From IMG/VR virus record IMGVR_UViG_3300049737_000544, positions 1 through 50,764 of that record: DNA of 50,764 bases. One strand, given 5' to 3'. The notes under the pieces are model-generated. The model made no database searches. It saw only the letters and a list, made by a program, of their open reading frames with translations, and was not told the origin of the DNA. This DNA comes from a virus. Its lineage: Duplodnaviria > Caudoviricetes. The translations under genes and the position numbers were made by a program. Positions 17,158 to 22,386 of the stretch are shown in pieces (position 1 is the first letter of the stretch; the number at the start of each line of letters is the position of its first letter).

Positions 17158-17521
17158 ACTCTTCCTCCTCTTTTAATATATCTAAGAACTTTTTCATTGC
17201 TTTCTTGCTATTAGCTATTGCGGGTCTCCCCTTCATTATTTTTTCCCCGATTAAAACGCAGCCCTCAGAATCCTTTTCTGGAAAGTTTCCAGCATGGAAA
17301 AGAATATAAGTTCTATTGGGTACATTGGAGACTATATAAGTATTACCAAACTTAGGTGAGAGGTATTTTTTACAGGTGTATGTATTACAGGGAATGCAGC
17401 TGACATTTTTTTTATTCCCCCGAAAAGGACGTTCCGCTGTATAGAATATTTCTCCGTCTATTGTGAGTTTTCCTAAAGTTGCTTCAGGATGATAAGCGAA
17501 CCTTAAAAGGGTGGCTTTCAT
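17114..17521 (-). CDS. DUF5675-like putative endolysin
   Basis: TLGKL..SCIP..VPNRTYILFHAGN..DSEGCVLIG; start moved to ATG 17521 to avoid overlap. Confidence 0.7.
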   Translation of the reverse strand: MKATLLRFAYHPEATLGKLTIDGEIFYTAERPFRGNKKNVSCIPCNTYTCKKYLSPKFGNTYIVSNVPNRTYILFHAGNFPEKDSEGCVLIGEKIMKGRPAIANSKKAMKKFLDILKEEEEFEITIKDKFPFDWT

Positions 17522-17525
17522 TCTC

Positions 17526-17783
17526 TTATCTAAAAAATAAAGCCAAGGTCGCAACGGCTGCGGCAATAAGAGCCCAAGCAACTCTTTCAATCCAACCAAC
17601 ATAAACTGTATTTTTTTGCTGTTGTTGTTCAAGAGTTCTCAATCTCCTTTCATGGTCTGATAAATCGTCTTTTTGATTTATCATCCTTTCTTCCAATCTG
17701 GGTAATATTTGAGACAACTTATGAACCTCATTCATTTTTTCTTCGAGGTTATTTAATCGCATCTCTATTTCTTTTGTTTCCAT
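17526..17783 (-). CDS. coiled-coil protein with C-terminal TM helix (XhlA/holin-like)
   Basis: DHERRLRTLE then hydrophobic tail; upstream of putative endolysin. Confidence 0.65.
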   Translation of the reverse strand: METKEIEMRLNNLEEKMNEVHKLSQILPRLEERMINQKDDLSDHERRLRTLEQQQQKNTVYVGWIERVAWALIAAAVATLALFFR

Positions 17784-17932
17784 TGTTAGTAAGGTATGCA
17801 GAGAAGATACAACACAAATAAAAGCCTTTCAAGCAATGAATTGTTTGTAATTAAAGTTATAAGAAATATTCTTTTTATGAAAACTTAATCTTAAAAAACA
17901 CATAAAAATTTCATCTTTTTTGAATTTTTTTC

Positions 17933-17962
17933 TTGACAGCCTCTATTTTTAATTGATAAGGT
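17933..17962 (+). promoter_or_regulatory. sigma70-type early promoter
   Basis: TTGACA, 18 bp, TGn-TAAGGT; AT-rich upstream tract. Confidence 0.7.
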
Positions 17963-18017
17963 TCGCATCATGTTATTACAAACAAAACACAACAAACGCA
18001 GAAATGCAGGAGAAAAT

Positions 18018-18335
18018 ATGAAAAATTGTAAAATAACAAAACTAAGCCATAACTTGATTTCCTATCGAGGTTTTTATTTCGGAGTGAATTACATAGTTAA
18101 GTCTGGTGGAAGGGGTTCTGTAAATGGAATGGAATATTATGGCATGAATGCAGGTATGAAAAGACATTTCTGGACTAGGGAGGAATTGAAGAGATGTGTA
18201 GACAGAAGGATTGATAGTGCAATGAAAGTTTATTGTGAGTCTTACGGCTGGGACACTGAGGACAATCCACTCTTAGCAGAAAGATTAGCTGAATTGGATT
18301 CTGCAAAAAATAACTCAAACAAGGAGGTTTCGTAA
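18018..18335 (+). CDS. early hypothetical protein
   Basis: RBS AGGAG before ATG 18018 (preferred over 17970). Confidence 0.75.
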   Translation: MKNCKITKLSHNLISYRGFYFGVNYIVKSGGRGSVNGMEYYGMNAGMKRHFWTREELKRCVDRRIDSAMKVYCESYGWDTEDNPLLAERLAELDSAKNNSNKEVS

Positions 18336-18336
18336 T

Positions 18337-19089
18337 ATGAAAGATGTAATTTACAGACATGATTTTTCAATGGATGAAGATCATCGGGACTTACAGTGGA
18401 GTTTGAAAGATGCGGAAGCGACACTTTGGGACTATAAAGTTTCAATAACTGAAGCTGGAGACAAAAAAGGCTTGAAAGATACAGTTTATTTCCAAAAGCT
18501 TTTGAAACGAGTTCATGCAGATTATGAGCACTCTATAAAAGCCCTTCACGAAGCTTTTTTATTTCATGCAAGTAGAGTTAATGCAGCTGAATTAAAAGAC
18601 CTTGTAAGCCTTTATGAGGTATCAGTAGACGAGACTGAAAAATATTCAGACTTGGAATTTGCCTATGAATATTATTTTTCAAGTAGTGAAGATAAATTCC
18701 AGCACGAATATAACCCTGCTGCTGCAATAGAATCCCACGAAATCTTTTTGAAGAGTTTCAACAAAAGATTCACTTTGGAAGGAATTGACAAGATTTTCTA
18801 CGAAATTGAAGGAGATCAAGACTCAAACTATATTTTTCTGCTTGAAGAAATAAAAACTTGTAAGAGATATGTATGTGTTGGGGGCACTAATCTGAAATCT
18901 ATAGTTACTGAAGGACTTTATGGTAAAAGCATGATTGAACTACAAGGTGAAGCCTTAATGAGTTGGTTAGACTTTTGTGAAGCAGCTGGAACGAATCGTT
19001 TTAAAACTTCTCTTTGGGATATTCAAATAACATTAGAAAAATATAAAAAAGTTATGGAGGATATGGAAAGCACTTCTGACGAGTCTTAA
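18337..19089 (+). CDS. acidic early hypothetical protein
   Basis: 250-aa ORF, RBS AGGAGG. Confidence 0.8.
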   Translation: MKDVIYRHDFSMDEDHRDLQWSLKDAEATLWDYKVSITEAGDKKGLKDTVYFQKLLKRVHADYEHSIKALHEAFLFHASRVNAAELKDLVSLYEVSVDETEKYSDLEFAYEYYFSSSEDKFQHEYNPAAAIESHEIFLKSFNKRFTLEGIDKIFYEIEGDQDSNYIFLLEEIKTCKRYVCVGGTNLKSIVTEGLYGKSMIELQGEALMSWLDFCEAAGTNRFKTSLWDIQITLEKYKKVMEDMESTSDES

Positions 19090-19123
19090 TGAGACGAAAC
19101 TTCCCTTCGGGGAAGTCAAGTGC
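19070..19123 (+). ncRNA. type I hammerhead ribozyme HHR1 (predicted cleavage after GUC 19117)
   Basis: stem I GCACTT/AAGTGC; CTGACGA; stem II GTCT/AGAC; GAAA; stem III ACTTCCC-TTCG-GGGAAGT; C17. Confidence 0.93.
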
Positions 19124-19166
19124 GGAACATTGGGTTCCAAACAAAAAACTTTCATACGGAGAAAAT

Positions 19167-20204
19167 ATGAAAAAAGTTAGAAAAAAACAAATCGAAGTTA
19201 TCCAAGAAAAATTGGTTGCTTTGATGGAGAAGGAAGGAGCAAGTTGGTCCAAAATGTGGGTCCAAACTATGGCACCTTTCAATATTAAATCTAAAAAAGC
19301 TTATCGAGGAATGAATAATTTCTGGTTAGCAAATTGTCAGATTGACTGGGACCGCAATGCGGAAATAGAAGAAGGCTTGGAAAAAGGTACACTTGACCTA
19401 GATGAAGATGGAAACATTCTCGAATCACAAGGAGAATATGAAAATACTTCACCTGTCTGGGGCACCTTCAAACAATGGAATGAACTTGGACATAAAATCA
19501 AAAAAGGTTCCAAGGCTCAGAAAGTTGTATTTGCTTCCAAGCTTGAAAAGAAAATGTCTTGGCTCACTGAAAGACAAAAGGCAAATGTAAAAGCAGGTGG
19601 CAATATGCCTACTTACTTTGCTTGGAAAGAGTTCAGTGTATTCAATGCAGTTCAGATTGAAGGCTTTGATTCAGATAAAATTGAAAAGCTTTGCGGCAAT
19701 TCTAAATTCACGAAGGAACTAGACTCTGAAAAAGTCGAATCCCTTAGAGAATTTATTAAAAATACTGGAGCCACGATTTTATACAATGAAACAAATCCTT
19801 TTTCATCTGTTGATGGGGCTTATTTTTCCCCAAGCAAGGATTATATTGGAATGCCTTTGCAATCAAAATTCAATGATGATATTGGCTTCTTTGGAACTCT
19901 CTTGCATGAACTGGTTCATTGGACAGGGCACAAAGACAGGCTTGACAGAGATGTTCAGCAGGGCAGCAGCAAAGAGGACTATGCCAAGGAGGAACTTGTT
20001 GCGGAGATTGGTTCAGCTATCCTTTGTCAATTGCTAGGCATTGAGGCATCAATCAGAGCAAACCATGCACAGTATCTTAACCACTGGATTAAATCCATTA
20101 AGGAAGATTCTAAGGCTATGGTAAAGGCTTTCTCTCAAGCTACTAAGGCGGTTGATTATCTATTCAGCTTACAAGAAGAAATGAAGAAAGAGGAGGCTGC
20201 GTAA
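19167..20204 (+). CDS. ardC: ArdC-like protein (ssDNA-binding domain + zincin metallopeptidase)
   Basis: YRGMN, WGTFKQW..G..IKKGSK, VFNAVQ, LLHELVHWTGH, YAKEELVAEIGSA; start moved to ATG 19167 after GGAG. Confidence 0.88.
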   Translation: MKKVRKKQIEVIQEKLVALMEKEGASWSKMWVQTMAPFNIKSKKAYRGMNNFWLANCQIDWDRNAEIEEGLEKGTLDLDEDGNILESQGEYENTSPVWGTFKQWNELGHKIKKGSKAQKVVFASKLEKKMSWLTERQKANVKAGGNMPTYFAWKEFSVFNAVQIEGFDSDKIEKLCGNSKFTKELDSEKVESLREFIKNTGATILYNETNPFSSVDGAYFSPSKDYIGMPLQSKFNDDIGFFGTLLHELVHWTGHKDRLDRDVQQGSSKEDYAKEELVAEIGSAILCQLLGIEASIRANHAQYLNHWIKSIKEDSKAMVKAFSQATKAVDYLFSLQEEMKKEEAA

Positions 20205-20208
20205 TAGA

Positions 20209-20276
20209 GCACTACTGAAGAGACTTTATGAGTCGAAACCTGTTTTTTTCTTCCCCCGAAAAAGCAGGTCTAGTGC
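20209..20276 (+). ncRNA. type I hammerhead ribozyme HHR2 (predicted cleavage after GUC 20270)
   Basis: stem I GCACTA/TAGTGC; CTGAAGA; stem II GACT/AGTC; GAAA; 12-bp stem III ACCTGTTTTTTT/GAAAAAGCAGGT; C17. Confidence 0.93.
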
Positions 20277-20322
20277 GGGAAATAATTCCCAAACATAATT
20301 GCAGAAATGCAGGAGAAAAAAT

Positions 20323-20556
20323 ATGAGCAGAAATATAACAGACATTATGGACTCAAAACTTACTTATGTATCACCAAAAACTGATATACAAATGGATTCT
20401 GAGGGTCTTAAAAGGGTTAGCGATCAATGGTTATTTGATGAATTAGAGTCAAGTGCAATGATTGCTAATAGATTCAAATATGTTCAATCTGACATTATTA
20501 ATATTTTGTTGGAATTAAAAAGACGAAACTTAATAAAATTTCAGGAGGTGTCTTAA
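20323..20556 (+). CDS. early hypothetical protein
   Basis: RBS AGGAG before ATG 20323. Confidence 0.7.
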   Translation: MSRNITDIMDSKLTYVSPKTDIQMDSEGLKRVSDQWLFDELESSAMIANRFKYVQSDIINILLELKRRNLIKFQEVS

Positions 20557-20822
20557 TGTCTGGAGCACACAGTCACGGAGTTTGCCCTGAATGCAACAGT
20601 CAAAAAGCAGACTCATTCTGGTGTAGCGAAAATGGTAACAAGCTTTCATGCGATAAATGCGGCTATGATTCTGGTTGGGAAAAAAGCATACTTGATAAAA
20701 CAGAAAACTATCTTAGAAAGCTATCTCATGCTGAATTAGTTTTTATACAAGAGTTTGTTTTTGATCTGATTGAATACAAATTTGAAAAAGAAAAAAAGGA
20801 GGTAACACAAAAGTCTTACTGA
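20556..20822 (+). CDS. small Zn-ribbon protein
   Basis: CPEC..CDKC; RBS AGGAGGT. Confidence 0.7.
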   Translation: MSGAHSHGVCPECNSQKADSFWCSENGNKLSCDKCGYDSGWEKSILDKTENYLRKLSHAELVFIQEFVFDLIEYKFEKEKKEVTQKSY

Positions 20823-20883
20823 GGAGGATTTAATATCCGAAAACTCAGGCAATTATGTTTCGATTTTGCCTGAGTTCTAAGAC
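20813..20883 (+). ncRNA. type I hammerhead ribozyme HHR3 (predicted cleavage after UUC 20877)
   Basis: stem I GTCTTA/TAAGAC; CTGAGGA; stem II GGAT/ATCC; GAAA; 11-bp stem III AACTCAGGCAA/TTGCCTGAGTT; C17. Confidence 0.93.
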
Positions 20884-20916
20884 AAACTAAACGCTTGAAA
20901 TATAGCAGGAGAAAAT

Positions 20917-21246
20917 ATGTCAATAACAGAAAATAATATCAAGCTAGAAGGTCAAGGCTTCCTTCCGCATGATACAAAATACTACAGAGCCTATTTTGTA
21001 AAAGACATTAATTTTATTTTTAGTAAAGATAAATTAATGTTTATGGGAAAAAGTATCACTATAAATGGTGCATTAACTGATTATCAAAACAGTTTTTGTT
21101 TTTTTACTGATGAAGGGATTCCAGCTTCTCATGTAACACAGGCTAAGAAAGACCTTGAAGGATGGATTAGCAATCCAGACAACAAAGACTTTGAAGAAAA
21201 TGTCGAGAAGATATTAAGAAAAGAAAAACTTTGGAAGGAGGCATAA
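20917..21246 (+). CDS. early hypothetical protein
   Basis: AGGAGAAAAT-ATG leader. Confidence 0.75.
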   Translation: MSITENNIKLEGQGFLPHDTKYYRAYFVKDINFIFSKDKLMFMGKSITINGALTDYQNSFCFFTDEGIPASHVTQAKKDLEGWISNPDNKDFEENVEKILRKEKLWKEA

Positions 21247-21608
21247 TGAAAAAATATATTAGGAAATTTTCATTTCAAGAATGCACCATTCTACAAATGT
21301 TAGTTGAATACGCATACGCAAAGGAAGTAGATAATCTTTTGCTGACTTATTGGAATCCATATCAAGTAAATGAAATTGCTTTTTGGAAAGATATAAAATT
21401 TGCTGAAGAAATTTGCCATGACTTTTATAATTGGGTAAATACTTCAACAGCAAACGAACCGAAATATAATCCAGAAAGAGATAGTTTTGACCCTTTAAAA
21501 GTTAAAGAAGGCAGGTCCGAACTTATAGAGCAATTGGATGATTTTGTAGATCAGTATCAATTAAATATTAAGTATCAAGAAAGGAGGAATACAAATGCAC
21601 ATACCTAA
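21246..21608 (+). CDS. early hypothetical protein
   Basis: AGGAGG RBS; TAATG coupling at 21246. Confidence 0.7.
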   Translation: MKKYIRKFSFQECTILQMLVEYAYAKEVDNLLLTYWNPYQVNEIAFWKDIKFAEEICHDFYNWVNTSTANEPKYNPERDSFDPLKVKEGRSELIEQLDDFVDQYQLNIKYQERRNTNAHT

Positions 21609-21918
21609 TACAAAAAGGAGTCAAATTTTTTCAAGGAAAGATAATATTGACAGACAAATAAAATATTTAGATGAACAGTTAGAAAAAATTTTCAAGCAAA
21701 CTGAAGATTTAATTGCTGACGGAAAAGAGCTTGATAAATATCTTGAAAGTGGCTGGGAGGAACAACATACTGAGGAGCATTTATTATCCGAAAGTCTTAA
21801 CTTAGAAGTTTCGATCTGGGCTACACAAAGATATTTAATTTCAGATTTTTCTGATTCTATTATCACAGCACGAGAAAAACTTAAAGCTTCGGAGGATAAA
21901 AATATCAGACGGGTATAA
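21595..21918 (+). CDS. early coiled-coil hypothetical protein
   Basis: AGGAGG RBS; last gene before terminator. Confidence 0.7.
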   Translation: MHIPNTKRSQIFSRKDNIDRQIKYLDEQLEKIFKQTEDLIADGKELDKYLESGWEEQHTEEHLLSESLNLEVSIWATQRYLISDFSDSIITAREKLKASEDKNIRRV

Positions 21919-21934
21919 ATAAATAATTAATTAT

Positions 21935-21963
21935 AAAAGGGCAGCTTTCGGGCTGCCTTTTTT
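21935..21963 (+). terminator. intrinsic terminator of early operon (possibly bidirectional)
   Basis: AAAA-GGGCAGCT-TTCG-GGCTGCCT-TTTTT. Confidence 0.85.
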
Positions 21964-22014
21964 ATTTGTCAAGACTATTAATTTTTTTTTATATCAGCTA
22001 ACATCACTGGTCCT

Positions 22015-22191
22015 ATGTTAATTAAAGAATCCATAATAAAAGTAGCCAGAACGCTTAAAGAAGGAAAGGAAATTGATATACAGGACAAGAATATACTAGA
22101 AGGTTATCCAGCAGATTTAGATGAGCAAGATATTTTAAAAGCAATGAACGCTATTGATATTGTCTCTGATATTTTACTTGAACTAGAGTAA
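22015..22191 (+). CDS. small acidic hypothetical protein (58 aa)
   Basis: manual translation MLIKESIIKVARTLKEG...ILLELE; weak RBS. Confidence 0.5.
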   Translation: MLIKESIIKVARTLKEGKEIDIQDKNILEGYPADLDEQDILKAMNAIDIVSDILLELE

Positions 22192-22386
22192 GTCTATTTT
22201 TCGTATTGCTTCTTCGTAACTTTTACCTAAAGTTGTCCAATCTGTTTTCTCATCAGGCTTATATAACCAGCCCCTGTGCATAGTATTTTTTCCATGTACA
22301 TTGTGAGGTACCCATTTTATTTTTACCCCGCTGTAACCCTTCTCTCGAAGTTTTAAAGCTATGTTCTCTTTCTTACTCATCTTCAT
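22183..22386 (-). CDS. hypothetical protein
   Basis: ORF track; last gene of minus-strand run. Confidence 0.6.
   Translation of the reverse strand: MKMSKKENIALKLREKGYSGVKIKWVPHNVHGKNTMHRGWLYKPDEKTDWTTLGKSYEEAIRKIDLL

What the first reader, a model, noticed from the sequence alone, without database searches (positions are those of the whole stretch)
19070..20825. Ribozyme cores coincide with stop codons: possible translation-gated cleavage
Seen: the TAA of ORF 18337-19089 lies in loop II of HHR1, so stem I and the core are translated (STSDES). HHR2 starts 4 nt after the ardC stop. The TGA stop of ORF 20556-20822 is the UGA of the HHR3 catalytic CUGA. Inference: a terminating ribosome would cover stem I and the core, so cleavage could depend on whether the upstream gene is being translated.
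Basis: partly seen in the sequence, partly recalled or inferred. Interest (0 to 1): 0.75.

Follow-up and report, generated by a model that had tools for sequence, protein, structure and literature searches.

The report
Hammerhead ribozymes abutting phage stop codons
Three self-cutting hammerhead RNAs sit between the genes of a marine phage's anti-restriction operon, each touching or overlapping the stop codon of the gene before it; this tight packing is typical of such phage ribozymes, and nothing yet shows that translation controls the cutting.

Summary
Three canonical type I hammerheads lie at 19070-19123, 20209-20276 and 20813-20883. They are the only ones in this 50.8-kb phage genome.

The pattern holds across the family. 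In 135 unique phage hammerhead sites, 106 have the upstream ORF's stop within -19..+19 of core C3. That is about 75.5 of 93 upstream-gene families. By a slightly different count, 108 of 134 sites do so, against about 12 for random positions.

The spacing is not fixed. It falls into several classes, and orthologues switch class (ArdC: -13, -10, -8). About 16% of families have the stop far upstream.

The hammerhead's 5' half is rich in stop triplets, and these operons are tightly packed. Both facts explain the pattern without any regulation. The hammerhead fold is the predicted minimum-energy fold even with about 60 nt of upstream context.

Best reading: constitutive cutting of a polycistronic early transcript between genes, as proposed for prophage hammerhead arrays in 2011. 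Translation-gated cleavage is physically possible but untested.

The parts
17970..18335 (+). First ORF of the + strand operon (121 aa, no family match)
18337..19089 (+). ORF of 250 aa. Its last six codons (STSDES) and its TAA stop are HHR1 stem I, core, stem II and loop II.
   Evidence: Homologues in L039, L038 and L006 end the same way (d=+11).
19070..19123 (+). HHR1, a type I hammerhead. Predicted cleavage is after C19117.
   Evidence: stems of 6, 5 and 7 bp; 77.6 bits; minimum-energy fold, z -3.73.
19124..19142 (+). 5-bp hairpin plus AAAC directly after HHR1 stem I. It would sit near the 5' end of the downstream cleavage product.
   Evidence: Relatives keep a hairpin here with different paired bases.
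19167..20204 (+). ArdC-like anti-restriction protein (345 aa, ArdC N-terminal domain plus zincin-like metallopeptidase domain)
   Evidence: PF18818 3.3e-39, PF08401 2.6e-16; phrog_7245 1.2e-65.
20209..20276 (+). HHR2, a type I hammerhead. It starts 4 nt after the ArdC stop. Predicted cleavage is after C20270.
   Evidence: stems of 6, 5 and 12 bp; 68.8 bits.
20277..20294 (+). 5-bp hairpin plus AAAC directly after HHR2 stem I
20323..20556 (+). ORF of 77 aa, no family match
20556..20822 (+). ORF of 88 aa with Cys-X2-Cys pairs. Its TGA stop is the U4-G5-A6 of the HHR3 core.
20813..20883 (+). HHR3, a type I hammerhead. Predicted cleavage is after C20877.
   Evidence: stems of 6, 4 and 11 bp; 58.5 bits; z -3.90.
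20917..21918 (+). The last three ORFs of the operon (109, 125 and 107 aa). They overlap one another and have no hammerhead between them.
21768..21859 (+). Decayed HHR3-like copy inside the 107-aa ORF. The core and stem II are recognisable; stems I and III are lost.
   Evidence: 15.7 bits, E 0.066.
21935..21962 (+). The only intrinsic-terminator-like site on the + strand in 17500-22200 (a second hit lies on the - strand of the same palindrome). It ends the operon.

Best explanation
The + strand operon at 17970-21962 of this marine phage is transcribed as one RNA. Three constitutively active type I hammerheads cut it after C19117, C20270 and C20877. This yields four mRNAs: two unknown genes; ArdC alone; two small genes; three small genes.

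In a type I hammerhead the scissile bond lies at the ribozyme's 3' end. The upstream gene can therefore run up to, or into, the ribozyme's 5' half and still keep its stop codon on the 5' product. That product then ends in the folded ribozyme body with a 2',3'-cyclic phosphate. The 3' product starts with a 5'-OH, six bases, a hairpin (for HHR1 and HHR2) and the next gene's ribosome-binding site.

The stops coincide with the ribozymes for two reasons. These operons carry almost no spacer. And the ribozyme's 5' half is full of stop triplets: UGA in every core, and often UAG or UAA at its 5' edge and in loop II. Any frame reading into it ends there.

Shown: the sequences, folds and covariation, the family-wide placement of stops, and the absence of internal terminators. 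Inferred: cleavage itself, its being constitutive, and its effect on mRNA stability.
For: Core and helices:
- All three sites have the canonical core (CUGANGA, GAAA, an A15.1-U16.1 pair, C17) and three helices.
- 14 of 17 pairs show compensatory changes among 31 relatives, and RNAalifold predicts the same structure.

Placement in the genome:
- The model finds exactly 3 strong sites in the genome, all in one operon.
- In 5 relatives searched as whole records, matches number 4, 1, 4, 4 and 1. Where there are several, they lie in one cluster of under 2 kb.
- The only + strand terminator-like site between 17500 and 22200 is at 21935-21962.

Fold:
- The HHR fold is the minimum-energy structure in 136-146-nt contexts.

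Stops:
- The stop lies within -19..+19 of C3 in 106 of 135 unique sites, about 75.5 of 93 families.
- At least 23 nt always separate the stop from the scissile bond in those 106 sites.
- The 5' gap has a median of -4 nt. The 3' gap to the next start has a median of 33 nt. Junctions without a hammerhead have a median gap of 23 nt.
- Stop triplets start at -8 in 32% of 134 sites, at -3 in 34%, at +1 in 100%, at +4 in 57% and at +11 in 57%. The background upstream is about 5%.
- Built-in stops are also present where they are not used. Of 77 sites whose ORF ends upstream, frame 0 is closed in 29 and frame 2 in 45.

Literature:
- Perreault et al. 2011 (PMC3088659, passages read) report prophage hammerhead arrays flanking single genes, among them the anti-restriction gene ardA. 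All ribozymes cleaved in vitro in three tested arrays, and the authors propose processing of long phage transcripts.
Against: - No cleavage was observed here.
- A metatranscriptome contig (run X5, 18844-19187) bridges the HHR1 scissile bond. Uncleaved RNA, or DNA carried into the library, therefore exists.
- Rfam's hammerhead models do not reach gathering score on any of the three sites.
- The 31 model sequences were pre-selected by a scanner that demanded pairing. That inflates the paired percentage, though not the variety of pair types.
- The broad set was fished with a pattern that fixed A at -7 and T at +11. That inflates the -9/-8 and +11 stop classes.
- ORFs were called crudely, as the longest ORF of at least 50 aa ending near the site.
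- Compaction and gating predict the same geometry, so the placement data cannot exclude gating.
Confidence: 0.68

Rival explanations
1. Translation-coupled cleavage. Because the upstream stop lies in or against the ribozyme, ribosomes finishing the upstream gene unfold stem I or the core. Ribosome traffic would then set when or how fast the RNA is cut. Alternatively, the ribosome strips stem I after cutting and so drives product release and prevents re-ligation.
For: - The stop lies inside the ribozyme in about 39.5 of 93 families and within 13 nt of stem I in another 36.
- The placement is far from random: 108 of 134 sites against a mean of 12.1 for random positions.
- The ribozymes are not kept clear of ribosomes. 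The median 5' gap is -4 nt.
- In the window's clade, 17 of 40 sites carry a Shine-Dalgarno-like GGAG or GAGG 10-30 nt upstream of C3. Control stretches further upstream have it in 2 and 5 of 40.
Against: - The spacing is variable and changes among orthologues.
- About 14.5 of 93 families have the stop more than 19 nt upstream.
- The GGAG enrichment is absent in the broad set (13 of 94, against 13 and 12 in control stretches).
- No alternative fold needs a ribosome to be resolved.
- At HHR2 (d=-13) the ribosomal helicase would reach only 2-3 pairs of stem I (recalled knowledge).
- Termination is brief compared with typical hammerhead rates (recalled).
- Compaction explains the geometry without this.
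Confidence: 0.17
2. The hammerheads matter mainly at the DNA level. As repeated about 55-nt modules at gene borders, they would serve as recombination joints that shuffle single-gene cassettes between related phages. RNA cleavage would be secondary or vestigial.
For: - Relative L039 carries an extra unit of about 488 nt: hairpin, leader, a 136-aa ORF and a second HHR. It sits exactly between two HHR copies.
- The window has one hybrid HHR. Its 5' part equals L039's first copy, and its 3' hairpin and leader equal the second copy.
- Different genes sit between similar ribozymes in relatives.
Against: - The catalytic core is invariant and all three helices keep pairing through compensatory changes. 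That is selection on the RNA, not on DNA repeats.
- The decayed copy at 21768-21859 shows what happens once RNA function is lost.
- The two roles are not exclusive.
Confidence: 0.07
3. Segments flanked by two hammerheads are excised and circularised, either by ribozyme ligation or by a host RtcB-type ligase. The result would be circular single-gene RNAs.
For: - Excised segments would carry a 5'-OH and a 2',3'-cyclic phosphate.
- Neighbouring ribozymes often share stem I sequences, so the ends could re-form a hammerhead.
- Perreault et al. 2011 raise this possibility.
Against: - No back-joined contig was seen in 4 RNA runs, though cover was patchy and contigs are poor evidence (table 5).
- Perreault et al. 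looked for spliced or circular products and report finding none (passage).
Confidence: 0.03

Closest known systems
Clustered hammerhead ribozymes in prophages (Perreault et al. 2011, PLoS Comput Biol 7:e1002031; passages read)
   Same: Several hammerheads lie close together and flank single genes or short gene blocks in phage DNA. One described array flanks the anti-restriction gene ardA. The proposed role is processing of long phage transcripts.
   Different: - Here the flanked anti-restriction gene is ArdC, in a free marine phage genome.
- All three ribozymes are type I.
- A conserved hairpin follows stem I in this clade.
- The main text of that paper never mentions stop codons (0 occurrences). 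Its supplements were not seen.
Rfam RAGATH-1-hammerhead (RF03152) and the other Rfam hammerhead families
   Same: The core and the type I layout match. The RAGATH-1 consensus has an AGGAG about 15 nt upstream of CUGA. So do all three window sites, where GGAGG ends 15-18 nt before CUGA (alignments).
   Different: - Scores are 27.7 and 26.4 bits against a gathering score of 56.3, and HHR3 is not hit at all.
- The upstream hairpin of RAGATH-1 is not formed here (non-pairs are marked).
- No Rfam hammerhead family reaches its threshold.
RNase III processing of the phage T7 early transcript
   Same: An early polycistronic phage RNA that includes an anti-restriction gene is cut between genes into stable single mRNAs that end in hairpins.
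   Different: T7 relies on a host enzyme. Here the RNA would cut itself, so processing would not depend on the host's RNases.
Synthetic ribozyme insulators such as RiboJ
   Same: A self-cleaving ribozyme followed by a hairpin sits upstream of a ribosome-binding site. It gives the downstream gene a defined 5' end.
   Different: RiboJ is an engineered part derived from a plant satellite RNA ribozyme. The natural elements here also overlap the preceding gene.

Membership tests
Hammerhead ribozyme (type I) | Conserved core: C3-U4-G5-A6-N7-G8-A9 and G12-A13-A14 | tested here: met
   CUGACGA, CUGAAGA and CUGAGGA, each followed by GAAA after stem II. These columns are invariant in 31 of 31 relatives.
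Hammerhead ribozyme (type I) | Three helices around the core, supported by covariation | tested here: met
   17 pairs, of which 14 show changes on both sides. 99.6% of 524 cells are paired, against 35-42% when partners are slid. RNAalifold predicts the same structure. Caveat: the rows were pre-selected for pairing.
Hammerhead ribozyme (type I) | A15.1-U16.1 pair and a cleavage-site H17 that is not G | tested here: met
   The triplets are GUC, GUC and UUC, with C17 at 19117, 20270 and 20877. A-U in 31 of 31 rows at columns 32/67, and column 68 (H17) is C in all 31 rows.
Hammerhead ribozyme (type I) | Open end in stem I, closed loops on stems II and III | tested here: met
   Stem I is formed by the outermost 6+6 bases. 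Stems II and III are hairpins.
Hammerhead ribozyme (type I) | Self-cleavage giving a 2',3'-cyclic phosphate and a 5'-OH | not testable with these tools
   Only assembled RNA contigs were available. They cannot show RNA ends.
Hammerhead ribozyme (type I) | Tertiary contact between loop II and stem I or its extension | tested here: inconclusive
   HHR1 and HHR2 each show 4-bp complementarity between loop II and the loop of the 3' hairpin. Only 4 of 13 matched pairs have it, against 9 of 120 mismatched pairs.
Rfam RAGATH-1-hammerhead (RF03152) | Score at or above the family's gathering score (56.3 bits) | tested here: not met
   27.7 and 26.4 bits for HHR2 and HHR1; HHR3 not listed.
   Distances range from -19 to +14 in several classes. 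Orthologues differ: ArdC -13/-10/-8; other families -10/+1, -3/+11 and +11/+14.
   This needs a coupled transcription-translation assay or an in vivo assay.

The most novel reading that the evidence does not exclude
The 5' half of phage type I hammerheads doubles as the translation stop of the preceding gene. It would be a portable 'stop plus cut' module. It closes incoming reading frames at least 23 nt before the scissile bond. It also makes ribosome passage and ribozyme folding mutually exclusive, so that ribosome traffic on the upstream gene times the cut or drives release of the downstream mRNA. If so, cleavage between genes in these operons would be coupled to translation, which has not been described for a natural hammerhead in the papers I searched.
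Probability: 0.15. Interest if true: 0.7.

Novelty: new member of a known kind. Interest (0 to 1): 0.42.

Why it matters
Hammerhead arrays in phage DNA have been known since 2011, but their biological role is still called unresolved in a 2019 review (PMC6765202, passages read).

This window adds a clean case: three ribozymes cutting out an ArdC anti-restriction gene in a near-complete marine phage genome. The survey made here adds one general rule for this ribozyme type. The preceding gene nearly always ends in or against the ribozyme's 5' half, and in the 106 sites whose stop lies within 19 nt of the core it never ends closer than 23 nt to the cut.

That rule helps annotation. The elements are missed by Rfam thresholds, and gene ends there are RNA-constrained. 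It also defines a simple experiment on whether ribosomes and ribozymes interfere. If they do, it would be a new layer of phage gene control. If they do not, the finding is ordinary genome packing.

Tried and rejected
1. Rfam at gathering threshold gave no match in the window. At E up to 10 there were only sub-threshold RAGATH-1 and type III hammerhead hits. I therefore do not file the sites under any Rfam family.

2. blastn of 18300-21300 against the GenBank phage collection gave no match.

3. Metatranscriptome contigs.
- Four RNA runs from 2 studies, three of them from one sample, hold parts of the operon at 99% identity or more.
- In runs X1-X3 no contig covers any of the three ribozymes. 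One X2 contig starts at 20270, one base before the predicted HHR2 3' product.
- Cover is patchy elsewhere too, and contigs cannot show RNA ends. I count neither point as evidence of cleavage.
- No joints were listed, which is no evidence against circles.

4. An upstream competing structure that translation might resolve: none in the minimum-energy folds.

5. An upstream GGAGG as a general part of the element: enriched only in the window's clade (17 of 40) and not in the broad set.

6. A loop II to 3'-hairpin kissing contact: too inconsistent to claim.

7. The in-frame ATG at 19089 (TAATG in loop II) as a re-initiation site for a longer ArdC. The extended frame is open in the window and L039 (371 aa) but not in L006, L037 or L038 (352, 352 and 345 aa). 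I take it as chance.

8. A mononucleotide shuffle test suggested excess stops in all three frames (27 of 134 against a mean of 5.0). My search pattern had fixed T at +11 and A at -7, and the sites are related. I therefore give this no weight as evidence of selection for stops.

9. Ten open frames of at least 50 aa at 9 sites cross the scissile bond.
- At five of these sites a longer ORF in another frame ends at the ribozyme (L033, L042, L074, L123, L134).
- The other four are ambiguous or have only short ORFs (L077, L102, L106, L064).
- I did not vet them further.

10. ArdC relatives at 32-43% identity (loci L008-L028) have no hammerhead; their best hit is 18.7 bits. The ribozymes are therefore not tied to ArdC as such.

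Supplementary files of Perreault et al. 2011, which hold its alignments and gene contexts, were not seen and may bear on the stop-codon question.

Rows dropped. From the 52 matches I used 41. I left out L034 and the four L036 hits as duplicates of L033 and L031, L035 because it lies at a contig end, and five hits under 20 bits. All 103 matches were used. The 144 hits collapsed to 135 unique sites.
Full report
**What the window is.** The window is a whole IMG/VR virus record of 50,764 nt, with CheckV completeness 97%. The finding lies in a + strand operon:
- ORFs of 121 and 250 aa;
- an ArdC-like anti-restriction gene at 19167-20204 (Pfam PF18818 3.3e-39 and PF08401 2.6e-16; phrog_7245 'anti-restriction protein' 1.2e-65);
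- then ORFs of 77, 88, 109, 125 and 107 aa with no family match.

The only + strand terminator-like site between 17500 and 22200 is at 21935-21962. One transcript for the whole block is therefore the simplest reading.

**Checking the observation.**
- HHR1: stem I 5' strand 19070-19075, core 19076-19082, stem II with loop 19083-19095. The TAA of ORF 18337-19089 (19087-19089) lies in loop II. GAAA is at 19096-19099, stem III at 19099-19116, C17 at 19117, and the stem I 3' strand at 19118-19123. The protein therefore ends S-T-S-D-E-S, read from stem I, the core and stem II.
- HHR2: stem I starts at 20209, 4 nt after the ArdC TAA (20202-20204). C17 is at 20270.
- HHR3: the core is at 20819-20825. 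The TGA at 20820-20822 that ends ORF 20556-20822 is the UGA of that core. C17 is at 20877.

**Are they real hammerheads?**
- Rfam gives nothing at gathering score. It gives only weak RAGATH-1-hammerhead hits (27.7 and 26.4 bits against 56.3) for HHR2 and HHR1.
- My own scanner (core motifs plus pairing) finds these three sites on the + strand, plus one weak - strand hit (stems of 5, 3 and 4 bp) that I took for chance.
- Relatives fetched through ArdC (26 loci), the 250-aa ORF (2 loci) and a degenerate pattern of the ribozyme (13 loci) hold many more, up to five within about 3 kb.
- Thirty-one distinct sequences align without trouble.
- Of 17 pairs in the three helices, 14 show changes on both sides. 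99.6% of 524 cells are paired, against 35-42% when partners are slid by 1-3 columns. None of 500 shuffles reaches the covariation score.
- RNAalifold predicts the identical structure on its own.
- Caveat: these rows had passed a scanner that required pairing. The paired percentage is inflated, but the variety of pair types is not.
- A covariance model from this alignment (R1) scores the window's sites at 77.6, 68.8 and 58.5 bits. With filters off, the next best hit in the whole genome is 15.7 bits.
- Each site folds into the hammerhead as its minimum-energy structure (z -3.7 to -3.9 for the elements alone). It does so also within 136-146-nt contexts that include about 60 nt of upstream coding sequence.

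I conclude that these are three canonical type I hammerheads. Cleavage itself is inferred, not shown.

**Is the coincidence with stop codons more than chance?** I widened the sample.
- A loose pattern was scanned over the viral collection: A, six free bases, CUGANGAG, a T at the first loop II position, then CGAAAC.
- Model R1 found 103 matches at E up to 0.001 in those 80 loci, often in arrays of up to seven.
- Together with 41 strong matches from the first set, this gave 144 hits and 135 unique sites. The tried-and-rejected field lists the rows I dropped.
- For each site I took the longest same-strand ORF of at least 50 aa ending between 150 nt upstream of C3 and 10 nt past the cut. I recorded d, the first base of its stop minus C3.

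Results by site:

| Class | First set (40 sites) | Broad set (95 sites) |
|---|---|---|
| Abuts the ribozyme (d -19..-7) | 18 | 34 |
| Inside stem I | 1 | 15 |
| At the core UGA (d=+1) | 5 | 11 |
| In stem II or loop II | 14 | 8 |
| Further upstream | 2 | 15 |
| Beyond +19 (all weak ORFs of 50-68 aa) | 0 | 3 |
| No ORF | 0 | 9 |

- In all, 106 of 135 sites lie within -19..+19.
- Grouping the upstream proteins by blastp gives 93 families: 36 abutting, 13.5 in stem I, 13.5 at the core, 12.5 in stem II or loop II, 14.5 far upstream and 3 beyond.
- Against random positions in the same loci, the placement is far from chance: 108 of 134 sites against a mean of 12.1 and a maximum of 22 in 300 trials.

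**Is the spacing conserved?** No. It is confined but not fixed.
- The commonest values are -11 to -8, -3, +1 and +11.
- Orthologous genes sit in different classes. ArdC is at -13 in the window and L039, at -10 in L006, L037 and L038, and at -8 in L007, whose ArdC is only 44% identical and still has a hammerhead on each side.
- Other families mix -10 with +1, -3 with +11, and +11 with +14.
The distance is neither random nor constant.

**Why the stops fall there.** Two ordinary causes suffice.

First, packing. The gap from the stop to stem I has a median of -4 nt (quartiles -10 and +1). The gap from stem I to the next start codon has a median of 33 nt, which has to hold the ribosome-binding site. 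Same-strand junctions without a hammerhead in the same loci have a median gap of 23 nt (crude gene calls).

Second, the ribozyme's 5' half is full of stop triplets (134 sites):

| Position relative to C3 | Sites with a stop triplet starting there |
|---|---|
| +1 | 100% |
| +4 | 57% |
| +11 | 57% |
| -3 | 34% |
| -8 | 32% |
| Further upstream (background) | about 5% per position |

- Part of this was imposed by my pattern (A at -7, T at +11). A at -7 is nonetheless invariant in the 31 sequences of the first set, where it was not imposed.
- These built-in stops are present even where the upstream gene does not use them. Among 77 sites whose ORF ends upstream or is absent, frame 0 is closed in 29 and frame 2 in 45.
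- A frame that reads into the ribozyme therefore ends there.
- In the window's clade, several unrelated proteins end with the same translated ribozyme (STSDES, STTDET, STSEES), while the residues just before differ. That is RNA-level constraint showing through as protein.

**A design point that follows from the topology.** In a type I hammerhead the scissile bond is at the 3' end of the fold. An overlapping upstream ORF therefore keeps its stop on the 5' product.
- In all 106 sites with a nearby stop, at least 23 nt (median 48.5) lie between the stop codon and the cut. In the window the figures are 28, 66 and 55 nt.
- From recalled knowledge of ribosome rescue on truncated mRNAs, that is enough for normal termination. 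This step is inference.
- Ten open frames of at least 50 aa at nine sites do cross the cut. At five of these sites a longer ORF in another frame ends at the ribozyme, and the other four are ambiguous.

**How it most likely works.** The operon RNA cuts itself after C19117, C20270 and C20877.
- This gives four mRNAs, with ArdC alone on one of them.
- Each 5' product ends in the folded ribozyme body with a cyclic phosphate.
- Each 3' product begins with a 5'-OH and six bases. After HHR1 and HHR2 there follows a 5-bp hairpin plus AAAC, then the next gene's ribosome-binding site 39-52 nt from the cut.
- That hairpin is a feature of the window's clade only. 23 of 135 sites have a hairpin of at least 5 bp there, against a shuffle mean of 7.3, and nearly all are clade members. 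Its paired bases differ between copies while pairing is kept.
- This matches what Perreault et al. 2011 proposed for prophage hammerhead arrays. One of those arrays flanks the anti-restriction gene ardA, and all ribozymes in the three arrays they tested cleaved in vitro (PMC3088659, passages).
- A 2019 review still lists the purpose as unresolved (PMC6765202, passages).
- By recalled analogy, this is a host-independent version of the RNase III cuts in the T7 early transcript.

- The geometry makes ribosome and ribozyme mutually exclusive at the moment of termination. That is a fair and general point.
- Nothing here indicates control. There is no fixed spacing, no ribosome-resolvable alternative fold, and a sizeable minority of sites with distant stops.
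- At HHR2 a terminating ribosome would open only the outer pairs of stem I. This rests on the recalled position of the ribosomal helicase, about 11-13 nt past the first P-site base.
- One oddity keeps the idea alive. In the window's clade, 17 of 40 sites carry GGAG or GAGG 10-30 nt before C3, against 2 and 5 in control stretches. The broad set shows no such excess (13 of 94 against 13 and 12).
- I put translation-coupled cleavage at about 0.17.

**RNA data.** Marine metatranscriptome contigs match the operon at 99% identity or more. One contig (X5, 18844-19187) bridges the HHR1 cut, so an uncleaved form, or DNA in the library, exists. Contigs cannot show ends, and gaps over the ribozymes are reported only under tried and rejected.

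**Literature on the stop overlap.**
- Five full-text searches found no paper describing upstream stops inside or against phage hammerheads.
- The main text of Perreault et al. has no occurrence of 'stop codon'.
- A 2026 preprint notes that stop triplets are enriched in hammerhead cores, in an origin-of-the-code argument rather than for phage genes (10.64898/2026.03.05.709948, passages).

**Verdict.**
- The objects are new members of a known kind: phage hammerhead arrays that process operon RNA.
- The overlap with stops is best explained by packing and by the ribozyme's own stop-rich sequence.
- Translation-gated cleavage is unproven and testable.

Noticed in passing
window 21768-21859 (inside ORF 21595-21918): A decayed copy related to HHR3. 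24 of 26 bases of the core plus stem II are identical, and an 8-base block of the stem III loop is shared. Stems I and III are gone, and the stretch is now read as protein. R1 scores it 15.7 bits, E 0.066.
   Followed up: partly
window 19070-19166 versus L039 10396-10990: A close relative (ArdC 99% identical) has an extra unit of about 488 nt between the 250-aa ORF and ArdC: hairpin, leader, a 136-aa ORF and a second hammerhead. The window has one hybrid hammerhead whose 5' part matches the relative's first copy and whose 3' hairpin and leader match its second. This is a gene-cassette gain or loss with breakpoints inside hammerhead repeats.
   Followed up: partly
window 19124-19142 and 20277-20294: A hairpin plus AAAC follows directly after stem I of HHR1 and HHR2. 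It is kept in clade relatives with different paired bases (GGAAC/GUUCC, GAGGC/GCCUC, GGGAA/UUCCC, GGGAC/GUCCC, AAGGC/GCCUU). HHR3 and most of the broad set lack it.
   Followed up: partly
window 19056-19060, 20192-20196, 20798-20802: GGAGG lies 15-18 nt before the CUGA of each of the three hammerheads, inside the upstream coding sequence. It echoes the AGGAG of the Rfam RAGATH-1 consensus. It is enriched in the window's clade (17 of 40 sites, against 2 and 5 in control stretches) but not in the broad set. Unexplained.
   Followed up: partly
window 19088-19091 with 19128-19131; 20233-20236 with 20282-20285 (approximate): Loop II and the loop of the 3' hairpin are complementary over 4 bases in HHR1 (AAUG/CAUU) and HHR2 (UUAU/AUAA). 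This could be a loop-loop tertiary contact. Only 4 of 13 distinct relatives show it, against 9 of 120 mismatched pairs.
   Followed up: partly
window 19089-19166: An ATG overlaps the TAA in loop II of HHR1 (TAATG). It is in frame with ArdC and would give a 371-aa form that reads through the ribozyme. The extension is not open in L006, L037 or L038, so it is probably chance.
   Followed up: yes
loci L064, L070, L098, L124, L131 and others (IMG/VR contigs): Type I hammerhead arrays are common in viral contigs.
   Followed up: partly
relatives L031-L033, L040, L041 (stem III loops): Long stem III variants often carry a C-rich loop (a run of five or six C after U-rich sequence), as in window HHR2 at 20250-20258. 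No partner sequence was identified.
   Followed up: no
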